Shown: positions 13,751 to 64,000, counted from the stretch's first letter. The stretch: 64,000 nucleotides of DNA from an uncultured Candidatus Saccharibacteria bacterium (GCA_965230955.1 OZ246404.1:782321-846320), one strand, 5' to 3'. The notes: generated from the letters alone by a model not told the origin. Program-made: numbers and translations.

Positions 13751-13825
13751 AACAGGTAACAGCTAACAAGTAACAAATTGGAAAAAATTCCATACCTGTT
13801 ACTTGTTACCTGTTACTTGCTACTT
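13751..13825. repeat. ~85-bp palindromic intergenic element, family R1 copy b
   Basis: aacaggtaacagctaacaagtaacaaattggaaaaaattccatacctgttacttgttacctgttacttgctactt. It abuts the stop of the 13824..14339 gene and ends about 15 nt before the ileS start. Confidence 0.6.
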
Positions 13826-14339
13826 AATCACTCTCTCCGGTCAAAGTTCCTAAAAACCGACGGATTTTTGTCAGTGGCACGTCCCAGCTGTCTGGCAAAA
13901 AAGTATTTTCCCCGGTTTGCAAATCCTCCGCGGTAATTTCAAAAATCTGCTTTCGTCCTTCCTCATTGAAAAGCGTCAAAGTTTCGTTTAGGGAAGTTTC
14001 ACCGGAATTTTCCAGCTTGAGTTTCTCTTTTAATTCGTCATACCGTTTATTGCTGATCAAGGTGTAGAATTCGGTCACTTCGTCTCGACTTACCTGAGCC
14101 AGCTGTTCCCCCGCCTTTTTTGAATTTACTTTTACCTTTCCGTCATAACCAACCTCCACATATTCGCTAAAAGTGCCGGTTTTGTCAATCCGATCCAGCG
14201 TGAAAAATTGGCCGGTCTCCGGCAAATCCAGTTCGGATTGAGGCCCGAATTTGGTCAAAGAAGTCAAAGAATCCGTACTACAGCCGGAAAAAAGGAGCAA
14301 CGCGGCGCTCACGAGTATAATTGTCGATAAAAGTTTCAT
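13824..14339 (-). CDS. lipoprotein (hypothetical)
   Basis: Signal peptide with a lipobox LFSGC. Confidence 0.5.
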   Translation of the reverse strand: MKLLSTIILVSAALLLFSGCSTDSLTSLTKFGPQSELDLPETGQFFTLDRIDKTGTFSEYVEVGYDGKVKVNSKKAGEQLAQVSRDEVTEFYTLISNKRYDELKEKLKLENSGETSLNETLTLFNEEGRKQIFEITAEDLQTGENTFLPDSWDVPLTKIRRFLGTLTGESD

Positions 14340-14543: not shown

Positions 14544-15386
14544 TCATTCATGTTTGTAGAGTTTCAACTCTACCTCCTGGTGACAGCCTACCGGAACAAA
14601 TCCGTCATAGGCTTGGATGTTGATACGCTGCCCGCTAAGATAGAGACTAAGCAGCGCAACGGGCGAGTATTCCGCCCTGTTCCCAGCGCGGTTTTCGTAG
14701 ACCGCCTGGACTCGATTGAGAGGAGCACAGAACGATACCGAAGTTTCGAAGCATAGCAGCAAGAACAAGGTCTTGGAAAACTGAGACTTCTGCTTTGCCA
14801 TCAAAGCTTCCAGTGTATTGGGGTTTCGAAATTCGAGCGTAGTCAAGAGAGACAACATGTCAGTAACTCGATACATCGAACTGGAAACTTCCAACGGATA
14901 CCCGAAATCGAATTCAGCTCGAGTCCAATCATACTGCAGGACGAAGCCGTTTGACGAGTCGAATTCAGGCAGACGCTGCGACTGATCAACCGGGTAACAA
15001 TAACTGATATTGCGTCCCAGTCGAAGAGAGAAACCAATAGCTTGCGGATAATCATCAAGGGCATCGGTCACCTGTTTCACGAGAAAGTCTTTGACAAAAA
15101 GATTGTCATCGACGAGAAACAGGACATACTCGAATCCATTGAGAGACCTTAGAACATCGAGCCGGAATTCTGTCTCGCGAATGAATTCCACCCCGTGTTC
15201 CCGGGCAAACAGTGTCGCCATTTGGAGATAAAGTTCCTCCATCAAAGCGTCGCTGGCGGCCCAAATCACCTTCATCTTTATAACTTCTGAATCGCGGCAG
15301 TGAAGGAAAAATCCGCGAATAGTAGCATCCAGTTGCAAGGGACGATCCTTGCTGAAAAGAATGACAACAGCATTACGCGTGTTCAT
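14544..15386 (-). CDS. putative GT-A-fold glycosyltransferase-like protein (DxD-like VDDN); function uncertain
   Basis: N-terminal VVILFSKDRPLQLD and FLVDDNLF resemble nucleotide-sugar transferase motifs. Its codon usage looks slightly different from its neighbours. It is flanked by a terminator and tRNA-Leu. Confidence 0.3.
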   Translation of the reverse strand: MNTRNAVVILFSKDRPLQLDATIRGFFLHCRDSEVIKMKVIWAASDALMEELYLQMATLFAREHGVEFIRETEFRLDVLRSLNGFEYVLFLVDDNLFVKDFLVKQVTDALDDYPQAIGFSLRLGRNISYCYPVDQSQRLPEFDSSNGFVLQYDWTRAEFDFGYPLEVSSSMYRVTDMLSLLTTLEFRNPNTLEALMAKQKSQFSKTLFLLLCFETSVSFCAPLNRVQAVYENRAGNRAEYSPVALLSLYLSGQRINIQAYDGFVPVGCHQEVELKLYKHE

Positions 15387-16615: not shown

Positions 16616-18340
16616 TTACATTCTCTCCAGCACTTTGATGCCCAAAATACCCAAGCCATTCTTCAGCACTTGCGCCGTGGCGGCGCATAAACTCAACCGG
16701 CTGTTTTTCAGATCGACCGTCTCCGCTTTCAAGACCGGCACAGCATTATAAAACGCATTGTAAGTCCTTGACAAGTCCCCCAAATATTCGGCCAGCAAAT
16801 TAGGGGAGTAGCTCAGCGCTGCTTTCCTGATCAATTCCGGGAAACGACTCAATCGGCGTAATAAATATTGTTCTTCCGGCAGGTCCAAACCAGCGACCGA
16901 CTCACCTATTTTCTTTATTCCGCTCTTTCGAATAATCCCTTGAATACGGGCATACGTATATTGGATATACGGTCCAGTATCACCAGTCATTTTAATCGTG
17001 GTTTCCGGGTCAAAATGAATATCTTTCGGCACTTCGTACTTTAGAATACCGTATTTCATGGCCGCCAGCGCGATCGCTTCCGCGGTCGCGTCTTCATTTT
17101 CCTTCGGCACCTGAATTTTACTCTCTTTCATCACCGTTGCCGCTCGCGTTTTCATCTCGTCCAAAAACTTGTCAGTCGAGACAACATTCCCCTTCCGCGA
17201 CGACATTTTTTCGCGCCCCAGATAAATATAACCGTAAGCCAAATGGTGGCTGCGCTGAGCAAAACTATAGCCGATCAGCTGATAGATCGCAAAAAGAACC
17301 TGGAAATGAAAACTTTGATGAATATCGACGCAATACAACATCCGCTCGGGGTGATACTTTTTCTCCCGCGCCTCGCCCAAATACATATCCTGGGTGATAT
17401 AGATCGAAGTGCCATCGGCGCGCAATAAAACCTTTTCACCCAGACCGAATTTAGACAAATCCACCACGACCTGGCCATCGGGCTTTTTAACAAAGAGGCC
17501 CTTTTTCAAATAGCGCTCGACGATTTCTTTTCCTTTTTGGTAAATATCGCTCTCATAAACTTTATCATCAAATCGTGAACCCTCGCGCTGATAAGTTTGA
17601 GCGAAACCCTGATAGACCCAGGCATTCATCTTTTTCCACAAAGCCCGAACCTCGGGATCGCCCGCTTCCCATTTAACCAGCATTTGGGCCACTTGATCGG
17701 CCAGAGTCGGATCTTTCGCCAATTCGTTTTCATACCGAACATAGAAGCTGCCGACAAAATGATCACTCTTCATTTTAGCGCTCTCCGGCGTTTGGCCCTG
17801 CCCAAACTTTTGGTACATCAACATACTTTTGCAAATATGTTGGCCACGGTCATTCAATAATATTGTCAAAACGACATCATAGCCAATCGCTTTCAATAAA
17901 TTATACACGGCCATGCCGATTGCATCATTACGGAAATGCCCGATATGCAGAGCCTTATTGGTATTGGGACTGGAATATTCCAGGACTATTTTTTTCCCCC
18001 GCCCCGAATCATCATGGCCGAACCGGTCGCCGGCCTTGATAATTTCCAATACGATGCTTTGATTAGAAGCGGCCGATAAATGGAAATTGATGAAGCCGGG
18101 CTTAGCCACTTCCACTTTCGAAAAATACTTTTTACTGTCGCCAGCGACGATTTTAGGAGCCAGCTCCGTCGCAATTTTTATCGGCGCTTGTTTCAATCGC
18201 TTGGCCAGCACCATGGCGATATTGGAAGAAAAATCCCCGTGGCTCTCATCGCGCGGATGTTCCACGACAAAAGAGACATCTGGAGAGATGTCCGAGCCTA
18301 AGGCATCACGAATTACTTGTTCGATATATTGTTTGATCAT
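16616..18340 (-). CDS. argS: arginine--tRNA ligase
   Basis: SPNTNKALHIGHFRN (HIGH motif), the C-terminal DALR-like anticodon-binding region, and the ArgRS-type KMSSRKG. The length is 574 aa. Confidence 0.9.
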   Translation of the reverse strand: MIKQYIEQVIRDALGSDISPDVSFVVEHPRDESHGDFSSNIAMVLAKRLKQAPIKIATELAPKIVAGDSKKYFSKVEVAKPGFINFHLSAASNQSIVLEIIKAGDRFGHDDSGRGKKIVLEYSSPNTNKALHIGHFRNDAIGMAVYNLLKAIGYDVVLTILLNDRGQHICKSMLMYQKFGQGQTPESAKMKSDHFVGSFYVRYENELAKDPTLADQVAQMLVKWEAGDPEVRALWKKMNAWVYQGFAQTYQREGSRFDDKVYESDIYQKGKEIVERYLKKGLFVKKPDGQVVVDLSKFGLGEKVLLRADGTSIYITQDMYLGEAREKKYHPERMLYCVDIHQSFHFQVLFAIYQLIGYSFAQRSHHLAYGYIYLGREKMSSRKGNVVSTDKFLDEMKTRAATVMKESKIQVPKENEDATAEAIALAAMKYGILKYEVPKDIHFDPETTIKMTGDTGPYIQYTYARIQGIIRKSGIKKIGESVAGLDLPEEQYLLRRLSRFPELIRKAALSYSPNLLAEYLGDLSRTYNAFYNAVPVLKAETVDLKNSRLSLCAATAQVLKNGLGILGIKVLERM

Positions 18341-23751: not shown

Positions 23752-24138
23752 GGGGATGCCAGGCATCGATGGATATCTAAAACTAATCACACTAGTCGAG
23801 CGTCACCAAGAGTCTCGTTAAACCACCTTGGTATCGATAAGTGTCAAAACATTTATCAGCAATGTGAAGTCAGCATTTGCTCCTTCCTTTGCACCTGCTA
23901 TCGCTTAATACCGATAGCTATCTCACTTAGCTGACCTGACAGTTGAGACCGAGGTATTATATTTTTCAGGCGTAGGTGATAATCTTGTCCTAGATTGTCA
24001 CTGAACGATTAAGGACTGGGCGCCGGTTATTTCGCTCGTCTTTGAGACCGGAGCCGACAAAAGCAAGATGAGCTAAGCTGGTAGACGTGATTGGTCGCTG
24101 ATATTCAGACGGGGGTTCAACTCCCCCCATCTCCACCA
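23752..24138 (+). ncRNA. ssrA: tmRNA (ssrA), standard one-piece form
   Basis: The 5' GGGGAUG pairs with the 3' CAUCUCC. A GGCAUCGAUGG D-loop analogue is present. The 3' end has the T-arm GGGGGUUCAACUCCCCC plus ACCA. It is about 387 nt long and sits immediately after smpB. Confidence 0.85.
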
Positions 24139-50790: not shown

Positions 50791-51585
50791 TTAGCGCAAA
50801 GTGCCGCCGAAAACCTGCCAGGCCAGCAATGATTTGGCCACCAAACTCAGAATGATGTAGACATATTCGCCGTAGACGTAACTGCGCCACTTCCCCACTT
50901 TCTTGTATTGCAGAACAATATTGAAGGCGAAAATGGCAAACGAGATGAAAATGGTGACAAAGATCCAATAGACAAAATCGGGAATTTTGGAACCTTCTTG
51001 GCTGCCGGTACCGATCAAGTAAATCATCAAGATAATCCAGGGAATAATCCCGGCGATACAGCCGAACCAGTACGGCATCCAGTCGACGGACTTTTCCGGT
51101 TGGCGATTCATCTTTTCCATGAGCCAGCCAAAAAGGATCATCATGGCATTGAGCGAGAACATCAGGATCAGCGTGGCGAAATCATAAATGCCGGCCAGCA
51201 TGGCAATGGCCACGATCATAATCGAAGAGCTGAAGGAATACTCGATCCAACGCGCCGGGTTGATGCCGTTAGAAATATTTTTGACGTACCAGCGGTTAAT
51301 ACCCGGTAGAACCACCATCAGGTGAGCAAAAGCCGATATAAAAAGGAAAGAGGCCACGAGAGGACCAAACGGGATCTCGAAAACCGTCTCGATATTCGGC
51401 CAGATTTTCTGCATCATCGGATTGAATTTCAGAAAAGAGGTGGTCACCGGCAGAGAAAAATCGTTGCTCAAATAGAGCATCAGTCCGCCTTGGATGGCGT
51501 GTAAAACCGCCATCACGGCGTTAAAAATCCGCAGTTTTCGAAAACCGGCGGCATCGGCCTGGATGACAGGTTTGGGCTCTTTCAT
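50791..51585 (-). CDS. heliorhodopsin (7-TM retinal protein, HeR family)
   Basis: Strong similarity by recall to heliorhodopsin 48C12: RWIEYSFSSSIMIVAIAMLAGI, MILFGWLMEK, PYWFGCIAGIIPWIILMIYLIGTGS, and YIILSLVAKSLLAWQVFGGTL, with the Schiff-base Lys in TM7. The length is 264 aa. Confidence 0.85.
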   Translation of the reverse strand: MKEPKPVIQADAAGFRKLRIFNAVMAVLHAIQGGLMLYLSNDFSLPVTTSFLKFNPMMQKIWPNIETVFEIPFGPLVASFLFISAFAHLMVVLPGINRWYVKNISNGINPARWIEYSFSSSIMIVAIAMLAGIYDFATLILMFSLNAMMILFGWLMEKMNRQPEKSVDWMPYWFGCIAGIIPWIILMIYLIGTGSQEGSKIPDFVYWIFVTIFISFAIFAFNIVLQYKKVGKWRSYVYGEYVYIILSLVAKSLLAWQVFGGTLR

Positions 51586-55321: not shown

Positions 55322-55409
55322 ATTGTGGGGGCGACCCCATGTGGTCGCCCGCCCCAATATCGCCGTTTGGGCATTTTATGGCAGGGCGGCCGCCGGCCGC
55401 CCCTACTGC
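55322..55409. repeat. ~85-bp GC-rich composite repeat, left copy (hairpins ggggcgacc..ggtcgccc and gggcggccgccggccgccc)
   Basis: attgtgggggcgaccccatgtggtcgcccgccccaatatcgccgtttgggcattttatggcagggcggccgccggccgcccctactgc. It matches 56156-56254 at about 75%. Confidence 0.5.
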
Positions 55410-55412
55410 ATT

Positions 55413-56141
55413 TTATATTTTCCTCGCCTGATTGACATACCCGCAATATTCGCAATCCGGCGCCGCCGCGGGGATCGTCTCGCCCGTCAGGCAATCATGG
55501 ATTTTTTCCACTGTCGGCTCGACCCAGTCATCTTTCCCGGTATAGGGAATGATAGTCACGTCGAATTCCAGTTTGCCGTCAAACGCCTTGCGATCCGTCT
55601 TCCCGTTGCAATAGACGAAATACCCGGTGCTCGAAACTTTGTGGCCATTCTTGCGCAGTAGCCACTGGTAAATTTCCATCTGGCGTTTGTAGCCCTCGTG
55701 CCATTCTTTGTCCAGCTTGGTCACCTCTTCCGCCTTGGCGGTGGCTTTGTAATCCACCACAATATATTCGCCCGCTTTATTTTGCCACAGGTCATCGATC
55801 GCGCCGTAAAGCAGTAAATTGGTCGGCTCGTGTAAATATCTGATCCCGGTGAAATTATGGCGCCATTCGGATAGTTTTTCATGATCGATCGGCACGGCAT
55901 CAATCCCGTATTTGGCCATTAGCGGGTGCGTTGTCCCCGCCGCGCGGTGGATATCGAATTCCTTTTTGAGCAAGGTGTCGACAGCCACATTGAGGGTGAA
56001 AGGATATCCCGGCGGGCGTTTGATCCCCAGCCGTTTATCCAAATAAAAACAGCGCGGGCAATTGATGAATAAATCTATCCCCGTCCGGCTGAGTTTGAAT
56101 TGATCTTTGGAGGTGGGATTGAATAATTTACTGGCGTGCAT
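55413..56141 (-). CDS. PD-(D/E)XK nuclease, Cas4/RecB-nuclease-like (DUF83-type) with a four-Cys cluster
   Basis: AIDDLW...GEYIVVDYKAT (D...E.K core). N-terminal CPRC and C-terminal CEYCG cysteines, as in Cas4/AddB Fe-S nucleases. Confidence 0.6.
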   Translation of the reverse strand: MHASKLFNPTSKDQFKLSRTGIDLFINCPRCFYLDKRLGIKRPPGYPFTLNVAVDTLLKKEFDIHRAAGTTHPLMAKYGIDAVPIDHEKLSEWRHNFTGIRYLHEPTNLLLYGAIDDLWQNKAGEYIVVDYKATAKAEEVTKLDKEWHEGYKRQMEIYQWLLRKNGHKVSSTGYFVYCNGKTDRKAFDGKLEFDVTIIPYTGKDDWVEPTVEKIHDCLTGETIPAAAPDCEYCGYVNQARKI

Positions 56142-56155
56142 GGAGGTTATTTTTA

Positions 56156-56254
56156 ATTGTGTAGGGGCGCCCGGCCGGGCGCCCGGAAATATCCGCCGCG
56201 GTGCGCCATAGCAGGGCGGCCGCCGGCCGCCCCTACCATAAAATGCCCAAAAGG
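56156..56254. repeat. ~85-bp GC-rich composite repeat, right copy, plus an inverted 'ccataaaatgccc' tail
   Basis: attgtgtaggggcgcccggccgggcgcccggaaatatccgccgcggtgcgccatagcagggcggccgccggccgcccctaccataaaatgcccaaaagg. Confidence 0.5.
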
Positions 56255-56285
56255 TGATATTCGTTGGGGCACCCCAACAATATAT

Positions 56286-57338: not shown

Positions 57339-57768
57339 GGGGGTTGAGTTACTAAATATTCCGGAAGGAATCTATAAGAAAGTAGACTTAAATGCATTAT
57401 AACATGATGGTGGGAAATAGGGAGATTGTATTTTAGACCTTTTTCCGCAAACAACCATTCAGCTCGAACCCGGAATTTGCTGAAGAATATAACAGAAAAA
57501 GCGGTATCGACCGCTTTTTGTCCAAGCTGGCTCAACAAGATGGACATCATCCGAACCTTTTTCCATCGTCACGAGGACGATTGGGTCGTTGTGACGTTTA
57601 TCAAGATCCCCCTGGGACTTTTGCGACTGCCCGACAGAGGGGTAAACCTATGTGAGTATTACCCTGTTTTCTGTTTCTGATTCCAGCGTAGCAAGTTACC
57701 AAATCCTAGCAATGTATTTTTTGTCCAGATGGGCAATAAATATTGCTTATAGTTTCCGCCTATCAAAA

Positions 57769-60507
57769 TTACTTATCGAATAATGTTGGGACATGCCCAT
57801 TAGTAAACCCCTCCAACCCAAGCTCTTCGTGCTTAAGTTCGTCATAACCATCGAAGTCATCGACACCGGAAATATCTGCTGATTTAAAGCCACGTCTTTC
57901 CATAATTTTGTCAACGAGAAAAAATGTCCTTATACCACCCTCCTTCTCTAAAAGTTTTAGTGCCTTTTTACGATCATCTATTTGTTTGGTTTCGGCCAGG
58001 TGTTTGCCCTTCACATCAACAATAATCCATTCACCGTTCATAAAAGCTAAAAAGTCCGGATAAAACGGCGCGGGTTTTACTTCGACTGGATATTCAGTTC
58101 TCGGCTCGTTTCTTACCCAAAAGCTTTTTCTCTTCTTATCCAGTGAGCACAAATGTTCCAATGTATCGGCGACCCATTTTTCCGGCGGACTATCAAACTT
58201 TACGTATGGCCTGATAGAATATTTGTAGTCTTCAACAATCGTGCCCTTCTGCTGTAAATGAGACGACATTTCTTGATATGATGGAATGAGATTTAATATC
58301 TTCCCATCTCTTTTCCTTATCGTAACAGCGCTGTCAATGAAAATATCCTTGACATTCTTTTTTTTAAAATCAAATTGGCTCTTAAACATCAAATCCGAAG
58401 ACCCCTGTTCATAAAACCCCGTAATCTTTTTCTTAAGCGCTCTTAAGGCTCTTTTACGATCGACGGCATACGCAGTATCAACCCGAATACCCGCATCAAA
58501 AATAGACTTAATTAATTTTTCAACCGATTTTCTTGAGATGTCTCCGATGTGAGGTCCCGTTTCGTCGATAAAATCCAGCGCCCAACGTGCTAGATCATTA
58601 TCCGGTAAAGTTAGTGTTACTCGAGTAGTGGCCGGCTTGTCCGTTTTCAATTCAAATTCCGGTCCAGTAACTTCAGCATAATCTACCATCGCCATAACTT
58701 CATCCTTTAACACTCTGTCTCCGCGGGATAAACCACAAGAGTCATCAATAAATGACTTAACGCTCAATTTTTTATCTTTAAGTGCTTCGTCGAAGGTAAT
58801 ACCCGTTGCCACTCGTTTAATTTGTAGGATTGGAATTTGATAATCGTCTATGATCTTACTATTAACTTTGTTTTCTTTATCTTCCTCTTCCGTGGGTATC
58901 TCAACGCTAGCTGGCGATAAAGCAAGATTCTCCCGAATTTCTTCGACAATCCGGTCAAATCTTTTGCCACGTTCGCAGACGACATGCAAAATTTCGCTCT
59001 GCTCCTTCAAATCGTGATCTAACAGATCGTATTCTCGTTTTTCTTTATAAAGACGCAGGCCACGTCCAATTAACTGAGCAGCTGCCAATCCCACATTCTC
59101 TATGGTGTCTCCCAAAACTACGATGGTATAAAAATTATCGTAATCTACGCCTTCGGTAAAAATCCTGACCTGATTTACAATCTCTGCCTTATTGTCATCA
59201 AGCGACTGATAATCAGCCCAGGTTTCTTCATCACTTTTATTTTCGCTATGAATGGTAAAAACGGATTTTGCCAAAGAAGAAAGCTGTTTAACGAGCTCCT
59301 CTTTATTTTTGGGAATGTTATGTCTAACAATTTTGGCGATGTCGGTTCCTTCTAGGTTAACCTGCTCCAGGACGTCATCCAGTTCGCCGGAAACCGAGTC
59401 CGGCCAATTTTTCAAATACACATCCACTGCCTCGGCATGTTTTATGGTTCTTGCCTTAGTGAGCAACATGGATTTTTTAACGGGAGCATTTACGGCGGTT
59501 AAGGAGGCGCGCTTCAAGAGATGAATCAACATGCCCCATATTAACTTTTGCTTGTCGCTTTCATTCACTTCATCGCCGGTTTTTTCTTCTCCTAGCCCGC
59601 ATCCTACTGCAAAAATTCGCTTTCCATAACCTTCGCTGATATATCTCTGCATCGGATATTTATAGAGATTGTCCTGGCCAAAGCTTTCACTGTCGTTTTT
59701 CTCCAAAGACGTAGCGGTAAATTCCAATACCATGCTTGGCAATAATTCGAAAATTGCTTCGGTGGTTTTCTTTTGTTGATAGTGATGGGCCTCGTCCGAA
59801 ATTATAACCAGCCGTCTTTCTCTTAAAAATTCAATAAATGAAATAGTATGATTTCCGCTTTTATCTCGCCATAGCGATTCTTCCAATGGACGTCTTACGT
59901 ATGGTACGCCCTTCATGGTATCCTCGCCGTCTTTCTGATTGGCCGTTCCTCTGTCATAAAACTTCTGCATGTTAAAAACGTAGAACGTGATGTCCTTACC
60001 ATCTTCATAGTTACAGGTTTTATCCCGATAGGAATTACCGGTTACGAGATTGTAAGTTAAATTCCAGCCATCGCCAAAAATACTTTTAACGGCTCTGGGA
60101 GTGAAATTCTCAATGGTCTTATCAAAAAGAATCGTGTTAGGAGTTAAGATAAGAAAATCTTTGTGTCCGCGGTTATATAAATCCAAAATCATCGCTCCCA
60201 TCAGTAAAGTCTTCCCGGAACCGGTGGCCATTTCGAAACCAATTTTATTCCACTGGACAATTTTATCTTCGTCGTCTCTGCTCTGCTGGACGGTCTTTTG
60301 CTTAATGCTTCTGCTATCAAATTTATTATTCAGGAAAAGCTGAAAAGCGCCCATGGCTTCTATTTGATAGGGTCGCATTGGAAACTTAAGCAGGTGCTGT
60401 ATTTTATCGTAATTCTCTATAATCTTAGGTGAAGCGGAACCGACAGCAATTTTATATTGCTGGTCCTCACTTACCGAATCGTAAAATGTTTTTTGTTTAA
60501 TTTTCAT
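57769..60507 (-). CDS. res: Type III restriction enzyme, Res subunit (SF2 helicase-nuclease)
   Basis: Walker A ATGSGKT, DEAH box VIISDEAHH, and helicase motif VI QLIGRGLR. The length is 912 aa. It overlaps mod by 4 nt. Codons are AT-rich. Confidence 0.85.
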   Translation of the reverse strand: MKIKQKTFYDSVSEDQQYKIAVGSASPKIIENYDKIQHLLKFPMRPYQIEAMGAFQLFLNNKFDSRSIKQKTVQQSRDDEDKIVQWNKIGFEMATGSGKTLLMGAMILDLYNRGHKDFLILTPNTILFDKTIENFTPRAVKSIFGDGWNLTYNLVTGNSYRDKTCNYEDGKDITFYVFNMQKFYDRGTANQKDGEDTMKGVPYVRRPLEESLWRDKSGNHTISFIEFLRERRLVIISDEAHHYQQKKTTEAIFELLPSMVLEFTATSLEKNDSESFGQDNLYKYPMQRYISEGYGKRIFAVGCGLGEEKTGDEVNESDKQKLIWGMLIHLLKRASLTAVNAPVKKSMLLTKARTIKHAEAVDVYLKNWPDSVSGELDDVLEQVNLEGTDIAKIVRHNIPKNKEELVKQLSSLAKSVFTIHSENKSDEETWADYQSLDDNKAEIVNQVRIFTEGVDYDNFYTIVVLGDTIENVGLAAAQLIGRGLRLYKEKREYDLLDHDLKEQSEILHVVCERGKRFDRIVEEIRENLALSPASVEIPTEEEDKENKVNSKIIDDYQIPILQIKRVATGITFDEALKDKKLSVKSFIDDSCGLSRGDRVLKDEVMAMVDYAEVTGPEFELKTDKPATTRVTLTLPDNDLARWALDFIDETGPHIGDISRKSVEKLIKSIFDAGIRVDTAYAVDRKRALRALKKKITGFYEQGSSDLMFKSQFDFKKKNVKDIFIDSAVTIRKRDGKILNLIPSYQEMSSHLQQKGTIVEDYKYSIRPYVKFDSPPEKWVADTLEHLCSLDKKRKSFWVRNEPRTEYPVEVKPAPFYPDFLAFMNGEWIIVDVKGKHLAETKQIDDRKKALKLLEKEGGIRTFFLVDKIMERRGFKSADISGVDDFDGYDELKHEELGLEGFTNGHVPTLFDK

Positions 60508-62270
60508 AATAAATTGTATTCTCTTAAAATCGCTGTCGGGATTTTCCTAATGAGCACGCGATCATCAAGCGACTCATTTGGCACGGCAACAGCCATGTTA
60601 GTGAAAATCGTAAGATGTCTAAATTTTTCTTTGTCTAGGCCGGCAACGATTTTATTATAAGTGTCTTCATCAAGAGGCTTAACTTCCCTCGAAGCAAAAG
60701 AAAGGGCGTAGTTATAAGTAGCCGACCTGTGTTTACCTAGATACATTTTTTCTTTTTCCAGCCAATCAGCTTTAACTGGCTTATATTGAAAGTGCAGAAA
60801 AATTGCCTCAGCCATTTCTTCGGCCTTAAGCATCCAATTCATATCCTGTTCACGAATTAAGCTCTCACCAAGTTGATAGTATTTAAAACCACCGCCACCC
60901 TGCCAATTCGCATCTTTACTTACACCAGTTTGGTCACTTCCATTCGTTACTTTCTGCAAACGTGGAATAATGAGTTCATCGGCCTGTCGGCCCATTTCGA
61001 CCATTAACCATCGCCGTTTCATTTTTTGTGCTACTGCGCCGGTAGTTCCACTGAAAGCAAAAGTATCTAAAACAATGTCGTTTTCCTGTGTGGACATGCC
61101 TATAATCCGATGCAAAAGTCTTTCTGGTTTTCTTGTTCTATCTTCTCCTTTTATGCCGCCTTCGCCCCTAGCCGCATTTGAGACATCTTCCTTAGTCCAA
61201 AAATCACTTGGTTTTTCAAACTTATATATTACATCCTTTTCATTACTTGCTACAGATGATAGCCAACCGCACAATGCTTTCCCAAAATAGAAGTTCGTAG
61301 TAAGAGTGTCTACATTTTTTCCACGGCTCGGTGTATACTCCACCGAATAAAGCCCTTTATCCATCTGATCCATCAGCTCATGTTGAAATTTATTCTCTTT
61401 TTGCACTAAAAAGGTTCGGAAAATTTTATCAAAATTTTTCTTATAAAAATCTTTAAACTTCTTTCGGCTGTCTTCCAATTCATTAAATGGTATTCGTTCA
61501 ATTTTATAATTATCGTGTTTAAAAATCTTTACTGGCTCTTTATTTGATTTTGAAAGAAACTCCTTTACCAACTTTTTATTACCTTCGCTGATAAGAATCT
61601 GCCCATATCCTTTCAATTTTTCATATTCAAAAACTTTTTTAACGGTAAAATCTGCATTTATTGTGAGGCTTGTTTTTTCTTTTGCATAAACAAGAATATA
61701 TTCGGTCACATTTGCGAGCATTTTTCCTCCCAACCCTAAGCCAGCTACAGCTGAACGCTCCCATGCTACTTGCGATATAAAATTGTCGCGTCCGAATACC
61801 TCATCCATTAAAACTTTAAGATAGCCCTGCTCAATATCATCAATGTGCACAAAAATGACCCCATCGTGTCTCAATAATTTTCGCAGAAGACGAAGCCGAT
61901 CCCGCATCATGGTTAACCACTGAGAGTGTTGTAAATTATCCTCGTATCTTTCAAACGCATTTCCGGTATTAAAAGGAGGATCAATGTATATGCATTTAAC
62001 TCTCTCTTCGTCCGGCTTACCTTTGAACATTTCCACCAAACTTCGCAAAACCAACAGATTATCACCTTTGATAAGCATGTTTCCGCTAGTTTTATCTCCG
62101 TAGCCTTTGACGAAGCGTAAAATACGAGGCTCTGCAACCCGGATGTCGTTTTTTGGTACCCAAACCGGTCGAACGCCCTTACCTTCTTTTTCATCAATCT
62201 CATAGTAAAGAGAAAGGTCTTTATTGATCCAGTTTAATTGAAGTGATCCTTTGTGGTTCTTTTTCCGCAC
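60504..62270 (-). CDS. mod: Type III restriction-modification Mod subunit (N6-adenine/N4-cytosine DNA methyltransferase)
   Basis: IYIDPPFNTG (DPPF/Y catalytic motif IV) and the SAM-binding region. It has the mod-then-res order. Confidence 0.85.
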   Translation of the reverse strand: MRKKNHKGSLQLNWINKDLSLYYEIDEKEGKGVRPVWVPKNDIRVAEPRILRFVKGYGDKTSGNMLIKGDNLLVLRSLVEMFKGKPDEERVKCIYIDPPFNTGNAFERYEDNLQHSQWLTMMRDRLRLLRKLLRHDGVIFVHIDDIEQGYLKVLMDEVFGRDNFISQVAWERSAVAGLGLGGKMLANVTEYILVYAKEKTSLTINADFTVKKVFEYEKLKGYGQILISEGNKKLVKEFLSKSNKEPVKIFKHDNYKIERIPFNELEDSRKKFKDFYKKNFDKIFRTFLVQKENKFQHELMDQMDKGLYSVEYTPSRGKNVDTLTTNFYFGKALCGWLSSVASNEKDVIYKFEKPSDFWTKEDVSNAARGEGGIKGEDRTRKPERLLHRIIGMSTQENDIVLDTFAFSGTTGAVAQKMKRRWLMVEMGRQADELIIPRLQKVTNGSDQTGVSKDANWQGGGGFKYYQLGESLIREQDMNWMLKAEEMAEAIFLHFQYKPVKADWLEKEKMYLGKHRSATYNYALSFASREVKPLDEDTYNKIVAGLDKEKFRHLTIFTNMAVAVPNESLDDRVLIRKIPTAILREYNLL

Positions 62271-62417
62271 AATATTATATAAATAATCAGCACTGCTAAT
62301 TTCGATAACTTTAAATTATTTGTTAAACGAAGAACTATAGTGCCGGTTATTACTTATCACATACATGAGTATATTTATTATGATAACACAGCAGAACTAG
62401 ACCGGAAAGGGATCGAA

Positions 62418-62444
62418 GGATCAACCAGGACTCGAACCTGTCCC
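62418..62444 (-). other. tRNA-like 3' fragment (T-arm GGTTCGAGTCC plus the acceptor strand) with no complete tRNA; a possible integration-site remnant
   Basis: On the minus strand: gggacAGGTTCGAGTCCTGgttgatcc. No convincing D or anticodon arms are found upstream of it. Confidence 0.35.
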
Positions 62445-62460
62445 TTCCCTTATCTAAGCC

Positions 62461-62484
62461 AAAACCCCTTTCTAGGGGTTTTTT
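62461..62484. terminator. bidirectional hairpin terminator aaaacccct-ttct-aggggtttttt
   Basis: A 7-bp stem with a 4-nt loop, flanked by A4 and T6. Confidence 0.45.
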
Positions 62485-62739
62485 GATGCTGTTCACTCGA
62501 ACTCGTTTTTTTGGCTTCACTTAGCGAAAATTTGTATTCAAAGACAAATAAAAATTCATTGGCTCGCCAGGCTGGACTCGATCACTAAGACTTTTCTTCT
62601 TCCTTTATCACCACAAAGTCAAAGGCTTCGGCATGGTCTATCCGAGCTTGTCGAGGTGCCCTTCGTAAGCTCGGGGCTGGCTCAAGTCTAGAAAAAAAGC
62701 CTCACCCTTCACGGTGAAGCTTTTTTAACGGCCGGCTAA

Positions 62740-64000
62740 TCAATACTGATTACTGTTTTTGAAATAATGCCCGCGAAGCGAACTATTCGCCCAGAGCATC
62801 CAGACATCCACAAAACCGTCAGCGACACTCGGACCGTTGGCGAAACCAAAACTTACTTGGCAACCATGGTCATTGGCGGTAATCGTGCAGAGATCAGCCG
62901 TGGTTTGGCCAGCATCAACGGCACCGGAGAAATAAACACCTTTATTGAAACCCCAATAATCACAAAAGTCATGAGTCCCGCTTTCATTGGTTAATTTAAA
63001 ATTTGCCGCGGTGCTCGAAACTTTCGTGCCGATCAATTGGCAGGCCTCACCGGGGTAGCCGGACTCCGCTTCCAGTACAATGACCGGATTCGTATTCGGG
63101 AAACTTAAATTTATCTGCCCCACTTCCGACCCGAGATTGCGCCCGTCCACCGTATCTGCGTCCAGGCCCGAGCCCGAACCGTCGGCTATCTTGCTGGCAG
63201 AAATGGCCGCGCTGGAACTGATATCAGCGTCCATAATCGAACTGTTGACAATTTCTATACTACCGACCGTGTTCGCTCCCAACTGGAGATTGTTATACAG
63301 GCCACTGACATCCCCGCCGAAAGTGGAAGTCAAGACCAAGGCCGTGCCAGAGATTTTGCTCGCCGCAATCCCCGCGCTGGAACTGATATCGGAATCCATA
63401 ATCGCTCCACTAGCAATTTCGGCACTGCCGACCGTATTCGCTCCCAGCTGGAGATTGTTATACAGGCCACTGACATCCCCGCCGAAAGTGGAAGTCAAAA
63501 TCAGCGCTGTGCCTGAAATCTTACTGGCAGCAATCCCCGCGCTGGCGCTGATATCGGAATTTGTTAATGATCCGTCTTCTAATTCGGTCGAACCTACTTT
63601 TCCGCTACCGATCAGTAAATTATTATAACCCCCGCTGACATCACCGCCGAAAACGGTCGCTTGCACCAAAGCCGTACCGGAAATTTTACTGGCGGCAATC
63701 GCTCCGCTGGCGCTGATATCCGCGTCCGTCAAAGATCCGTCCGCCAATTCGGTCGAACCGACTTTGCCACTGCCGATTTGCAGATTACTGTAAACTCCGC
63801 TGACATCTCCCCCAAAAACCGTCGACTGGATCAGGGCCACGCCGGAAATCTTGTTTGGGCTGAGCGACCCCTCGCCGATTTCTCCCACGCTGGCATTGAA
63901 ATTTGTTTTATGCGCCACCAGATTTTCCACTTCAATTTCATTGACCGTCAGTTTCCCGGAAAAAAATCCATCGCGAAATTTTTTACTTTCACTGCCCAGT
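62740..64000 (-). CDS. phage tail-fibre-like repeat protein (partial; the N-terminus is beyond the window end) with four or more tandem 55-aa repeats and a Cys-containing C-terminal domain
   Basis: The reading frame stays open past 63930 to the window edge. Repeats ISGTAL..TFGGDVSG.YNNLQ.G...VGS.E...GS..D.DISSSAGIAASK. A DADTVDGRNLG motif resembles the tail-fibre/tail-collar 'DADTLDGxH' repeat. The C-terminal region has 4 Cys. Confidence 0.5.
   Translation of the reverse strand, partial: LGSESKKFRDGFFSGKLTVNEIEVENLVAHKTNFNASVGEIGEGSLSPNKISGVALIQSTVFGGDVSGVYSNLQIGSGKVGSTELADGSLTDADISASGAIAASKISGTALVQATVFGGDVSGGYNNLLIGSGKVGSTELEDGSLTNSDISASAGIAASKISGTALILTSTFGGDVSGLYNNLQLGANTVGSAEIASGAIMDSDISSSAGIAASKISGTALVLTSTFGGDVSGLYNNLQLGANTVGSIEIVNSSIMDADISSSAAISASKIADGSGSGLDADTVDGRNLGSEVGQINLSFPNTNPVIVLEAESGYPGEACQLIGTKVSSTAANFKLTNESGTHDFCDYWGFNKGVYFSGAVDAGQTTADLCTITANDHGCQVSFGFANGPSVADGFVDVWMLWANSSLRGHYFKNSNQY
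63050..63710. repeat. tandem 165-nt (55-codon) near-identical DNA repeats inside the tail-fibre-like gene
   Basis: For example, 63291-63342 and 63456-63508 share gttatacaggccactgacatccccgccgaaagtggaagtcaa exactly. There are about four units. Confidence 0.5.

What the first reader, a model, noticed from the sequence alone, without database searches (positions are those of the whole stretch)
57769..64000. AT-rich Type III restriction-modification island followed by a tRNA-like fragment and a tail-fibre-like repeat protein
The mod (588 aa, DPPF motif) and res (912 aa, DEAH helicase) genes overlap by 4 nt. By eye their GC is around 38%, against about 50% for the surrounding DNA, which argues for horizontal acquisition.

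Immediately beyond mod there is a 27-nt tRNA 3' fragment (T-arm plus acceptor strand) and two bidirectional hairpin terminators. After that comes a GC-rich gene encoding 55-aa tandem repeats with a DADTVDG tail-fibre-like motif, and it runs off the window. On the other side of res there is an unusually long 430-bp non-coding spacer.

Together this looks like the edge of an integrated mobile element, or of a prophage remnant that inserted at a tRNA.
Basis: partly seen in the sequence, partly recalled or inferred. Interest (0 to 1): 0.55.

Follow-up and report, generated by a model that had tools for sequence, protein, structure and literature searches.

The report
Acquired Type III restriction-modification island
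An ultra-small (Patescibacteria) bacterium carries an intact, recently imported two-gene DNA-defence system with a short tRNA-derived scar beside it, and the neighbouring "tail-fibre-like" gene looks like one of the cell's own secreted surface proteins rather than prophage, so the locus is ordinary.

Summary
It is the clearest compositional outlier in the window: GC 0.398 against 0.476±0.014, the lowest GC3, and the most deviant codon and tetranucleotide usage.

The same gene pair (80-88% nt in the four closest loci, 73-75% in two more; Res 92-95% aa in the closest) occurs in other metagenomes, in an integron-like cassette array and on large-serine-recombinase defence islands. Homology stops exactly at the ORF ends. 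The module keeps about 0.40-0.43 GC in hosts of 0.32-0.54 GC. Horizontal acquisition is well supported.

The tRNA-like piece is plausibly real. 62418-62440(-) is a 23/23 match to the 3' end of two genuine tRNA-Met(CAT) genes. But it is a single copy, it is only marginally significant as a T-arm, and the window holds no integrase or second repeat. Standard att geometry puts any element it bounds on the repeat-protein side, not the R-M side.

The repeat protein (535 aa in full) has a signal peptide and belongs to a multi-copy Patescibacteria family. A relative sits among housekeeping genes. Only local segments resemble phage tail fibres. A prophage edge is not supported, but DNA beyond 64000 could not be read.

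This is a new member of a known kind.

The parts
57769..60507 (-). res: Type III restriction subunit, 912 aa. SF2 ATPase (GSGKT 96-100, DEAH 238-241, QxxGRGxR 478-485) plus a C-terminal PD-(D/E)XK nuclease (PD 817-818, DVK 831-833).
   Evidence: Pfam ResIII 2.4e-22. PADLOC REase_III 1.8e-14. Motifs invariant in 16 homologues. Top Foldseek PDB hit is EcoP15I Res 4zcf_C, E 2.2e-6, but from a poor model.
60504..62270 (-). mod: Type III N6-adenine methyltransferase, 588 aa, GTG start. Motif IV (DPPF) comes before motif I (FSGTTG).
   Evidence: PADLOC MTase_III 4e-102. Pfam N6_N4_Mtase 7e-43. PDB hits to ModH 6k0w, Mbo45V 7dsu and EcoP15I Mod 4zcf_A.
61080..61790 (-). Target-recognition domain of mod (about aa 160-397), swapped between alleles.
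   Evidence: DNA homology to L046 and L057 drops out only over window 61074/61080-61782/61790, while both flanks of mod and all of res align.
57654..62542 (.). Approximate extent of the imported low-GC block.
   Evidence: Logan contig L001 equals exactly this span, and neighbouring Logan contigs from two samples both stop at 57564. The fine GC profile drops at about 57640 and recovers at about 62590.
62418..62444 (-). tRNA 3'-end relic: T-arm 62426-62440 plus acceptor strand. 62418-62440 is identical to the 3' end of tRNA-Met(CAT) genes.
   Evidence: The 22-mer has only 2 exact hits in metagenome contigs, both in register at the 3' end of ARAGORN-called tRNA-Met(CAT) genes. BLAST gives 23/23. 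The tRNA model scores it 11.2 bits, E 0.73. There is no second copy in the window.
62271..62390 (-). Very AT-rich (GC 0.25-0.31) stretch directly upstream of mod. Presumed mod-res promoter region (inferred).
   Evidence: GC profile. The promoter-consensus scan shows no enrichment over shuffles, so this is inference only.
62455..62485 (.). Palindromic hairpin AAAACCCCT-TTCT-AGGGGTTTT with T runs on both strands. A moderate terminator candidate.
   Evidence: -12.4 kcal/mol, z -1.8. Listed by the terminator scan on the + strand.
62690..62726 (.). Strong hairpin flanked by A7 and T6-7. Likely intrinsic terminator of the repeat-protein gene.
   Evidence: -20 kcal/mol, z -4.2, 0 of 200 shuffles as stable.
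62740..64000 (-). 3' 1261 nt of the gene for P0001. The full gene is inferred to span 62740-64347 (535 aa). It encodes a secreted repeat protein with local tail-fibre similarity. It is a host gene, not part of the R-M block.
   Evidence: 100% match to P0001. Signal peptide and alignment. Patescibacteria family. phrog_2012 minor tail protein 7e-14. IMG/VR tail-fibre relatives. GC 0.51.
63188..63847 (-). Four tandem 165-nt (55-aa) repeat units inside the P0001 gene.
   Evidence: the repeat finder family D1, 62-82% identity. TRF period 165.
57339..57768 (.). 430-nt spacer between res and the TolB-like gene. It holds the hairpin 57496-57519 (likely res terminator) and presumably the TolB-like gene's promoter. 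No RNA family and no gene remnant were found.
   Evidence: Hairpin -12.9 kcal/mol, z -2.9. Rfam gives nothing at E<=1. No tblastn remnants of neighbour genes from other loci.

Best explanation
This is an intact Type III restriction-modification operon (mod then res, translationally coupled by an ATGA overlap) that a Patescibacteria (CPR) chromosome acquired horizontally. The imported block is roughly 57654-62542. It lies between a TolB-like lipoprotein gene and a gene for a secreted repeat protein.

Inferred mechanism, from the established behaviour of the family (EcoP1I and EcoP15I):
- A Mod dimer recognises a short asymmetric site through its central target-recognition domain (about aa 160-397).
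- Mod methylates one adenine at N6 (DPPF catalytic motif).
- Res (SF2 ATPase plus C-terminal PD..DVK nuclease) binds Mod2.
- ATP hydrolysis switches the complex into a sliding state.
- DNA carrying two unmethylated, inversely oriented sites is cut close to one of them. This restricts incoming phage or foreign DNA.

Shown here:
- Both ORFs are intact with all catalytic motifs.
- The pair is a compositional outlier.
- Closely related copies (80-88% nt in four loci, 73-75% nt in two more) are cargo of an integron-like cassette array and of large-serine-recombinase islands elsewhere. Homology ends at the ORF ends, and the recognition domain is swapped in two alleles.

In this genome the module has no mobility gene left. 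The 23-nt copy of a tRNA-Met(CAT) 3' end, 147 nt upstream of mod, is most likely the scar of a tRNA-targeted site-specific integration at this locus. Its link to the arrival of the R-M pair is inferred, not shown.

The neighbouring repeat protein is most likely a host cell-surface protein built partly from tail-fibre-type modules, not a prophage gene.
For: R-M identity:
- Mod matches PADLOC MTase_III at 4e-102, and Res matches REase_III at 1.8e-14.
- Pfam gives ResIII and N6_N4_Mtase.
- Mod hits the Type III Mod structures 6k0w, 7dsu and 4zcf_A.
- GSGKT, DEAH, QxxGRGxR and PD..DVK are invariant in 16 Res homologues of 62-92% identity.
- The best structural match is EcoP15I Res.
- Sources name homologues 'type III restriction enzyme'.

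Foreign origin:
- GC is 0.398 against 0.476±0.014, and GC3 is the lowest of 52 ORFs.
- Codon-usage and tetranucleotide measures are the most deviant in the window.
- Res is 92-95% identical, and the DNA 80-88% identical, to L046, L050, L051 and L052; L055 and L057 carry more distant copies at 73-75% nt. These sit in unrelated contexts, and the homology is limited to window 57768-62264.
- Module GC is 0.40-0.43 in hosts of 0.32-0.54.
- The Res family spans Patescibacteria, Omnitrophota and Sedimentisphaerales, and often lies on contigs of only 4-6 kb.
- Assembly breaks and GC shifts coincide at about 57654 and 62542.

tRNA relic.

Repeat protein is cellular:
- It has a signal peptide.
- 43 loci carry relatives, almost all in Patescibacteria MAGs and several per genome.
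- The relative P0002 lies among infB, rbfA, cdaA and gyrA.
- GC is host-like at 0.51.
- There is no match in GenBank phages.
Against: - No integrase, recombinase, excisionase, attC pair or flanking direct repeat is present anywhere in the window. How the module entered this site is therefore unknown.
- The tRNA-like fragment is a single copy. Its T-arm alone has E 0.73 per window. It matches neither the window's tRNA-Leu nor its tmRNA.
- With standard att geometry it would bound an element on the other side (coordinates above 62444).
- Res has no sequence-level or profile-level match to any solved structure, EcoP15I Res included. The structural hit comes from a low-confidence model (pLDDT 56.5, TM 0.18-0.25).
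- Activity, recognition sequence and methylation are untested.
- Parts of the repeat protein do resemble genuine phage tail fibres. DNA beyond 64000 was not obtainable.
Confidence: 0.8

Rival explanations
1. One reading: the region is the edge of a prophage or integrated element that inserted into a tRNA. In this model the repeat protein is a tail fibre, the element continues beyond 64000, and the R-M pair is either its cargo or an island added in tandem at its attR.
For: - The orphan tRNA 3' end is oriented so that an element would lie at coordinates above 62444, over the repeat-protein gene (geometry by inference).
- The repeat region hits phrog_2012, minor tail protein, at 7e-14.
- Six IMG/VR contigs hold local relatives. 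The two examined are bona fide tail-fibre genes next to virion genes.
- Assembly breaks flank the R-M block.
Against: - The repeat protein has a Sec-type signal peptide.
- It has host-like GC and codon usage.
- Its family is multi-copy in Patescibacteria chromosomes, and the closest relative lies among housekeeping genes.
- It has no tblastn hit in 50,697 GenBank phages.
- No phage or mobility gene occurs in the 64-kb window.
- The Res family has no relative in IMG/VR.
Confidence: 0.15
2. The tRNA-like fragment is a chance T-loop look-alike with no history as a tRNA or att site.
For: - GGTTCGANTCC is expected 0.15 times per window, and a second, clearly accidental hit lies inside a CDS at 42306.
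- The tRNA model gives only 11.2 bits, E 0.73, tied with a random-looking hit.
- Rfam and default ARAGORN call nothing.
- The 5' 50 nt are no more tRNA-like than shuffles.
- There is no second copy.
- Given the huge diversity of tRNAs in metagenomes, some exact acceptor-arm match is not very improbable. My rough estimate is about 0.2 expected.
Against: - The match runs 23/23 through the T-stem, T-loop and full 7-nt acceptor strand. It ends exactly at the discriminator position in both independent tRNA-Met(CAT) genes.
- It lies in one of only two short spacers bounding the one clear foreign block in the window.
- A 6/7 complementary 'GCATCAA' sits at the right distance for a 5' acceptor strand.
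Confidence: 0.2
3. The R-M pair is an old, vertically inherited resident whose low GC reflects gene-specific constraints rather than import.
For: R-M genes are often AT-rich, and no mobility gene is present here.
Against: - 80-88% nt identity to the four closest copies (73-75% to two more) in unrelated genomic contexts and on mobile elements, with homology ending at the ORF boundaries.
- Module GC is constant across hosts of 0.32-0.54 GC. In L057 it is higher than the host's.
- The nearest relative of the flanking gene has no R-M beside it.
Confidence: 0.04

Closest known systems
Type III restriction-modification systems (EcoP1I, EcoP15I; Mod structures ModH 6k0w and Mbo45V 7dsu)
   Same: - The gene order is mod then res, with overlapping stop and start codons.
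- Mod is a beta-class N6-adenine methyltransferase with DPPF before FxGxG and a central, swappable recognition domain.
- Res has SF2 ATPase motifs and a C-terminal PD-(D/E)XK nuclease.
- Type III HMMs match both subunits.
   Different: - Res is too diverged from EcoP15I Res for phmmer or a family profile to find it.
- There are no simple-sequence repeats of the kind that drive phase variation in pathogen Type III mod genes.
- Unlike several close relatives, it has no upstream controller or HTH gene.
Genomic islands carrying R-M systems in Patescibacteria (for example the Type I R-M island described in PMC12455944)
   Same: It is a defence R-M system on a compositionally distinct block in an ultra-small CPR genome (for the paper; here).
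   Different: Here the system is Type III. The block is minimal, two genes and about 4.9 kb, with no accompanying island genes.
tRNA-targeted integrative islands and prophages (tyrosine-integrase elements with a duplicated tRNA 3' end)
   Same: There is a perfect copy of a tRNA T-arm plus acceptor strand beside foreign DNA.
   Different: No integrase, no intact tRNA partner and no second repeat lie within 64 kb. The orientation puts the R-M genes outside the segment the relic would bound.
Defence cargo of integron cassette arrays and of large-serine-recombinase islands (contexts of the same module in L046, L050, L055, L057)
   Same: The same mod-res pair is present, with Res 92-95% identical to L046 and L050 and 84-85% identical to L055 and L057.
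   Different: The window has no attC-like site, no recombinase and no HTH_17 gene. Only the two ORFs are shared.
Phage tail-fibre proteins (PHROGs 2012, 32829, 21412)
   Same: The 55-aa repeats and the DADTVDG junction of the neighbouring protein share local similarity with tail-fibre genes in viral contigs.
   Different: The protein has a signal peptide and an N-terminal domain typical of Patescibacteria, and its relatives sit in chromosomal housekeeping context. It has no hit in GenBank phages.

Membership tests
Type III restriction-modification system | Two adjacent co-oriented genes, mod upstream of res, forming one operon | tested here: met
   mod is 62270->60504 and res is 60507->57769 on the - strand, with a 4-nt ATGA overlap. 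The same pairing occurs in all 7 related loci.
Type III restriction-modification system | Mod is a beta-class N6-adenine methyltransferase: (D/N/S)PP(Y/F) motif IV before motif I, with a central target-recognition domain | tested here: met
   DPPF lies at about aa 97-100 and FSGTTG at about aa 405-412. PADLOC MTase_III 4e-102. PDB Type III Mods match. The recognition domain, about aa 160-397, is replaced in L046 and L057.
Type III restriction-modification system | Res has an SF2 helicase-like ATPase (Walker A, DEAH, motif VI) plus a C-terminal PD-(D/E)XK endonuclease | tested here: met
   GSGKT 96-100, DEAH 238-241, Q478..R482-G483..R485, and P817-D818 ... D831-V832-K833 are invariant in 16 homologues. 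Pfam ResIII 2.4e-22.
Type III restriction-modification system | Res is homologous to characterised Type III Res (EcoP15I) | tested here: inconclusive
   There is no phmmer or profile hit to any PDB chain. PADLOC REase_III HMMs match only the N-terminal ATPase. The Foldseek top hit is 4zcf_C at E 2.2e-6, but the model pLDDT is 56.5 and TM is 0.18-0.25.
Type III restriction-modification system | ATP-dependent cleavage requiring two inversely oriented unmethylated sites, and hemimethylation of an asymmetric site | not testable with these tools
   This needs biochemistry or a methylome.
tRNA-associated genomic island or integrated element | Compositionally distinct block | tested here: met
tRNA-associated genomic island or integrated element | Integrase or recombinase gene within the block | tested here: not met
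   The block holds only mod and res. tblastn with integrases and recombinases from related loci finds nothing in the window. Neighbouring genes carry no recombinase domain.
tRNA-associated genomic island or integrated element | Intact tRNA gene at one end and a direct repeat of its 3' part at the other | tested here: not met
   Only one copy of the 27-mer occurs at up to 3 mismatches. The window's tRNA-Leu and tmRNA have different 3' ends. No flanking direct repeats were found. The sequence beyond 64000 was not available.
Prophage or prophage remnant | Phage structural, packaging or lysis genes adjacent | tested here: inconclusive
   Only the repeat protein has a PHROG tail hit. The 10 kb to the left are cellular genes. 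The right side beyond 64347 is unseen.
Integron gene cassette | attC site (RYYYAAC ... GTTRRRY imperfect palindrome) downstream of the cassette | tested here: not met
   No such pair at 40-150 nt spacing occurs on either strand of the window. By contrast, L046 has three.

The most novel reading that the evidence does not exclude
The neighbouring gene belongs to a Patescibacteria-wide, multi-copy family of Sec-secreted proteins assembled from phage tail-fibre modules (55-aa repeats, the DADTVDG junction, a Cys-containing C-terminal domain). In this reading these episymbiotic cells use tail-fibre-derived fibres as their own host-attachment or surface-recognition devices. Alternatively, the gene marks a prophage or tailocin of a CPR bacterium integrated at tRNA-Met(CAT), with the R-M module added at its attR.
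Probability: 0.25. Interest if true: 0.55.

Novelty: new member of a known kind. Interest (0 to 1): 0.25.

Why it matters
The main result is that the finding is ordinary. R-M systems are the main known defence of CRISPR-poor CPR bacteria, and R-M-bearing islands in Patescibacteria are already described (PMC12455944).

Three modest points have wider value:
- One highly conserved Type III module circulates among Patescibacteria, Omnitrophota and Planctomycetota on at least two kinds of vehicle: an integron-like array and large-serine-recombinase defence islands. Its recognition domain is swapped between alleles, and the module repeatedly breaks metagenome assemblies at its edges.
- Here it sits 'naked', with only a tRNA-end scar beside it. 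That shows how defence cargo persists after its vehicle is lost.
- The adjacent secreted, tail-fibre-like protein family may be relevant to how episymbiotic CPR cells attach to hosts.

Tried and rejected
- Reading beyond 64000 failed. The full neighbour protein P0001 (NCBI, on a contig of 1,136,458 bp) is not in the positional index. The source genome is not among the GTDB representatives. It has no relatives in JGI metagenomes.
- An empty-site test was not possible. Only Logan contigs that stop at 57564, 57654 and 62542 were found.
- A full-length decayed tRNA at 62417-62489 was rejected. ARAGORN calls it only at a 60% threshold. Its 5' 50 nt align to tRNA-Met no better than shuffles, and its fold is not distinctive, z -0.85.
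- attC or integron flanks in the window: none.
- Remnants of HTH_17, HTH_3, integrase, serine recombinase or downstream cargo genes in the spacers: none.
- DNA similarity of the spacers to any fetched locus: only the tRNA matches.
- Rfam on both spacers: nothing meaningful.
- Known plasmids and phages: only short methyltransferase-motif hits, or none.
- Simple-sequence repeats for phase variation: none.
- AlphaFold2 of the repeat protein gave pLDDT 43 and was not used for fold search.
- Pfam and NCBIfam on the repeat protein: no family, even at E<=10 for Pfam.
- The gene downstream of the L053 tRNA-Met is not a recognisable integrase.

Full report
**1. What is in the sequence**

Two long ORFs on the minus strand fill 57769-62270. 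res is 57769-60507 (912 aa) and mod is 60504-62270 (588 aa, GTG start). They overlap by TCAT on the + strand, which reads ATGA on the coding strand.

- Mod carries IYIDPPFNTG upstream of FAFSGTTG. That is the beta-class motif order, with a long central region between the two motifs.
- Res carries MATGSGKT, SDEAHH and, near its C terminus, FYPDF...IVDVKGK.
- Mod matches Pfam N6_N4_Mtase at 7e-43 and Res matches ResIII at 2.4e-22.
- PADLOC gives MTase_III at 4e-102 and REase_III at 1.8e-14. The Res match covers only the N-terminal ATPase.
- Mod hits the solved Type III Mods ModH (6k0w), Mbo45V (7dsu) and EcoP15I Mod (4zcf_A).
- Res finds no solved structure, either as a single sequence or as a 16-member profile.
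- GSGKT, DEAH, QxxGRGxR and PD...DVK are invariant across homologues of 62-92% identity.
- An AlphaFold2 model of Res is poor (pLDDT 56.5). Even so, its best PDB match is EcoP15I Res, 4zcf_C, at E 2.2e-6 with low TM-scores.
- I found no simple-sequence tracts of the phase-variation type.

I file this as an intact Type III R-M operon with a diverged Res.

**2. Composition**

- The two genes have GC 0.398. Window 1-57338 has 0.476. Other 4.5-kb windows have sd 0.014 and never fall below 0.443. The flanking genes are 0.51.
- GC3 is 0.35 for mod and 0.41 for res, the two lowest of 52 ORFs.
- Among the 14 ORFs of at least 400 aa, codon-usage divergence is 0.167 and 0.120, against 0.027-0.075 for the rest. 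Tetranucleotide distance peaks over the R-M genes at 0.32-0.34, against a median of 0.15.
- At fine scale the low-GC block runs from about 57640 to about 62590.

**3. Related copies elsewhere**

The Res cluster at 90% identity and above, plus near relatives, could be placed on contigs.

- **L046.** The pair follows a divergently transcribed tyrosine recombinase. That recombinase's best NCBIfam match is integron integrase (1e-64, below the family cut-off). The pair is the first of several + strand units separated by three attC-like AAC...GTT imperfect palindromes. The whole low-GC array (0.376) is embedded in DNA of 0.50-0.52 GC between gyrA and nusA.
- **L050, L055, L057.** The pair lies next to a 538-539-aa large serine recombinase and a small conserved ORF. 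In L050 and L055 an HTH_17 excisionase-family gene also sits directly upstream of mod. Variable defence cargo follows res in L055 and L057: ThsB-TIR, then DUF87/nSTAND3 with HEPN.
- **L051 and L052.** These add an HTH_17 gene upstream, and a KAP NTPase or HigB with an M78 peptidase downstream.
- **Homology limits.** BLASTN homology to the window is 73-88% and is confined to 57768-62264, meaning the two ORFs and nothing else. In L046 and L057 the central part of mod (61074/61080-61782/61790) is replaced, which marks the recognition domain.
- **Module GC.** It is 0.40-0.43 in all seven loci, while the host or flank GC ranges from 0.32 to 0.54.
- **Breadth of the family.** It has 1483 hits at E<=1e-5. 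Sources name them from Vogelbacteria, Pacebacteria, Parcubacteria, Omnitrophota and Sedimentisphaerales. Strikingly many sit on contigs of only 4-6 kb.
- **The same pattern in the source population.** Logan contig L001 equals window 57654-62542 exactly. The contigs carrying the TolB-like gene stop at 57564 in two samples.
- **No viral or plasmid link.** No relative of Res occurs in IMG/VR. Known plasmids and phages share nothing beyond methyltransferase motifs.

Horizontal acquisition is therefore well supported.

**4. The tRNA-like fragment**

The minus strand of 62418-62444 reads GGGACAGGTTCGAGTCCTGGTTGATCC.

Evidence that it is weak:
- ARAGORN and Rfam call no tRNA there.
- The window's tRNA-Leu and tmRNA have different 3' ends.
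- GGTTCGANTCC is expected 0.15 times per window, and a second hit lies inside a CDS.
- A covariance model built from 22 tRNAs of the fetched loci finds the T-arm 62426-62440 at 11.2 bits, E 0.73 for the whole window.

Evidence that it is real:
- The 22-mer AGGTTCGAGTCCTGGTTGATCC has exactly two matches in the metagenome collection. Both lie in register at the 3' end of ARAGORN-called tRNA-Met(CAT) genes whose 5' acceptor strand is GGATCAA. BLAST extends the identity to 23/23.
- Identity stops at the first T-stem base on one side and at the discriminator on the other. This is the pattern of an att core, not of a decayed gene.

Other checks:
- A relaxed ARAGORN run proposes a 73-nt pseudo-tRNA at 62417-62489, with GCATCAA as the 5' strand. 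Its 5' 50 nt are no better than shuffles, and the D-arm position is occupied by the 62455-62485 hairpin.
- I judge the fragment about 75-80% likely to be tRNA-derived.
- No second copy or flanking direct repeat exists. No recombinase or HTH remnant exists in the window, and no attC pair.

Geometry (inference): an orphan tRNA 3' copy lies downstream of the element it bounds. On the minus strand that places the element at coordinates above 62444, over the repeat-protein gene. The R-M genes lie on the 'host-downstream' side. The fragment also lies about 100 nt inside the apparent block end at 62542. The link between the relic and the R-M arrival is thus unproven.

**5. The spacers and hairpins**

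- The hairpin at 62690-62726 (-20 kcal/mol, z -4.2) is a convincing terminator for the repeat-protein gene.
- The hairpins at 62455-62485 (-12.4, z -1.8) and 57496-57519 (-12.9, z -2.9) are moderate.
- The consensus scan as a whole finds no more terminator-like sites than shuffles do.
- The 430-nt and 469-nt spacers are real, but they rank only 7th and 9th of 51 gaps.
- Rfam finds nothing in them.

**6. The repeat protein**

- The ORF is open to the window end. It is 100% identical to P0001, 535 aa, so the gene should start at about 64347.
- P0001 begins with MNYKKALILSGAVLTVLVAVALALRPVDA|AS, a typical Sec signal peptide. The model shows a helix at residues 2-23.
- It has an N-terminal domain (GVTFFNG motif), four 55-aa repeats, GSGLDADTVDG, and a Cys-containing C-terminal domain.
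- Relatives were found in 43 loci, almost all labelled Patescibacteria, Parcubacteria or Kerfeldbacteria, with up to six per genome.
- The closest relative (47% identity) lies between a UPF0182 gene and ybbR, cdaA, rbfA, infB and gyrA.
- It has no Pfam or NCBIfam family and no tblastn hit in 50,697 GenBank phages.
- However, the repeat region hits phrog_2012, minor tail protein, at 7e-14.
- Six IMG/VR contigs have local relatives at 26-45% identity. The two I examined are tail-fibre genes beside virion genes.

The protein as a whole looks like a host surface protein.

**7. Verdict**

The R-M pair is foreign, and a tRNA-end relic is plausible.
- The prophage-edge reading is not supported by anything visible, and it cannot be settled without sequence beyond 64347.
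- R-M islands in Patescibacteria are already described (PMC12455944).
- This is a new member of a known kind, of low to moderate interest.

Noticed in passing
L046:7208-16822 (ENA ERZ934801, k127_426812): This is an integron-like array carrying the same Type III R-M as a 5.6-kb first cassette (mod-res, a 66-aa ORF, HARE-HTH). It has a divergent tyrosine recombinase whose best match is integron integrase (1e-64, below the family cut-off). Three attC-like AAC...GTT imperfect palindromes lie at about 13822-13932, 14758-14890 and 16722-16822. The array is a low-GC block between gyrA and nusA.
   Followed up: partly
L050, L051, L052, L055, L057: There is a recurrent island architecture: a large serine recombinase (538-539 aa), a small conserved ORF, an optional HTH_17 excisionase-like gene, mod-res, then variable defence cargo. 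The cargo includes ThsB-TIR with 8xMP, DUF87/nSTAND3 with HEPN, a KAP NTPase, and HigB with an M78 peptidase. In L057 the island lies directly after dnaG-rpoD.
   Followed up: partly
L059-L066, and many hits: Dozens of independent assemblies (Rifle groundwater and others) yield contigs of only 4-6 kb that hold just an HTH_3 controller-like gene, mod and res. Their ends fall within about 100-200 nt of each other. This suggests the module's flanks are repeated or strain-variable in many populations.
   Followed up: no
window 57564, 57654, 62542: Logan contigs from two or three samples break at identical positions around the R-M block. A 90-nt stretch (57565-57653) is assembled with neither side. 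It contains the imperfect palindrome CGTCACGAGGACGATTGGGTCGTTGTGACG.
   Followed up: partly
window 55347-55406 and 56208-56270: The Cas4-like PD-(D/E)XK nuclease gene (55413-56141) is bracketed by two copies of a roughly 60-nt element. Each contains the identical 26-nt GC-rich palindrome GCAGGGCGGCCGCCGGCCGCCCCTAC. These are the only two copies in the window. The gene also matches phrog_31195 (5e-17).
   Followed up: partly
window 62483-62489 (-): GCATCAA is 6/7 complementary to the fragment's acceptor strand and 6/7 identical to the GGATCAA 5' end of the matching tRNA-Met genes. It lies at the distance expected for a 73-nt tRNA, although the intervening sequence is not tRNA-like.
   Followed up: yes
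window 50791-51585 (-): There is a heliorhodopsin gene (Pfam PF18761, on the identical Logan contig L048) in this Patescibacteria genome.
   Followed up: no
window 23752-24138 (+): The tmRNA (128.9 bits) has an unusual predicted tag peptide, VKTFISNVKSAFAPSFAPAIA.
   Followed up: no
L053:4624-5096: In the metagenome contig whose tRNA-Met(CAT) shares the 23-mer, the tRNA starts one base after the end of a tmRNA gene. The ORF downstream of it has no recognisable integrase domain.
   Followed up: partly
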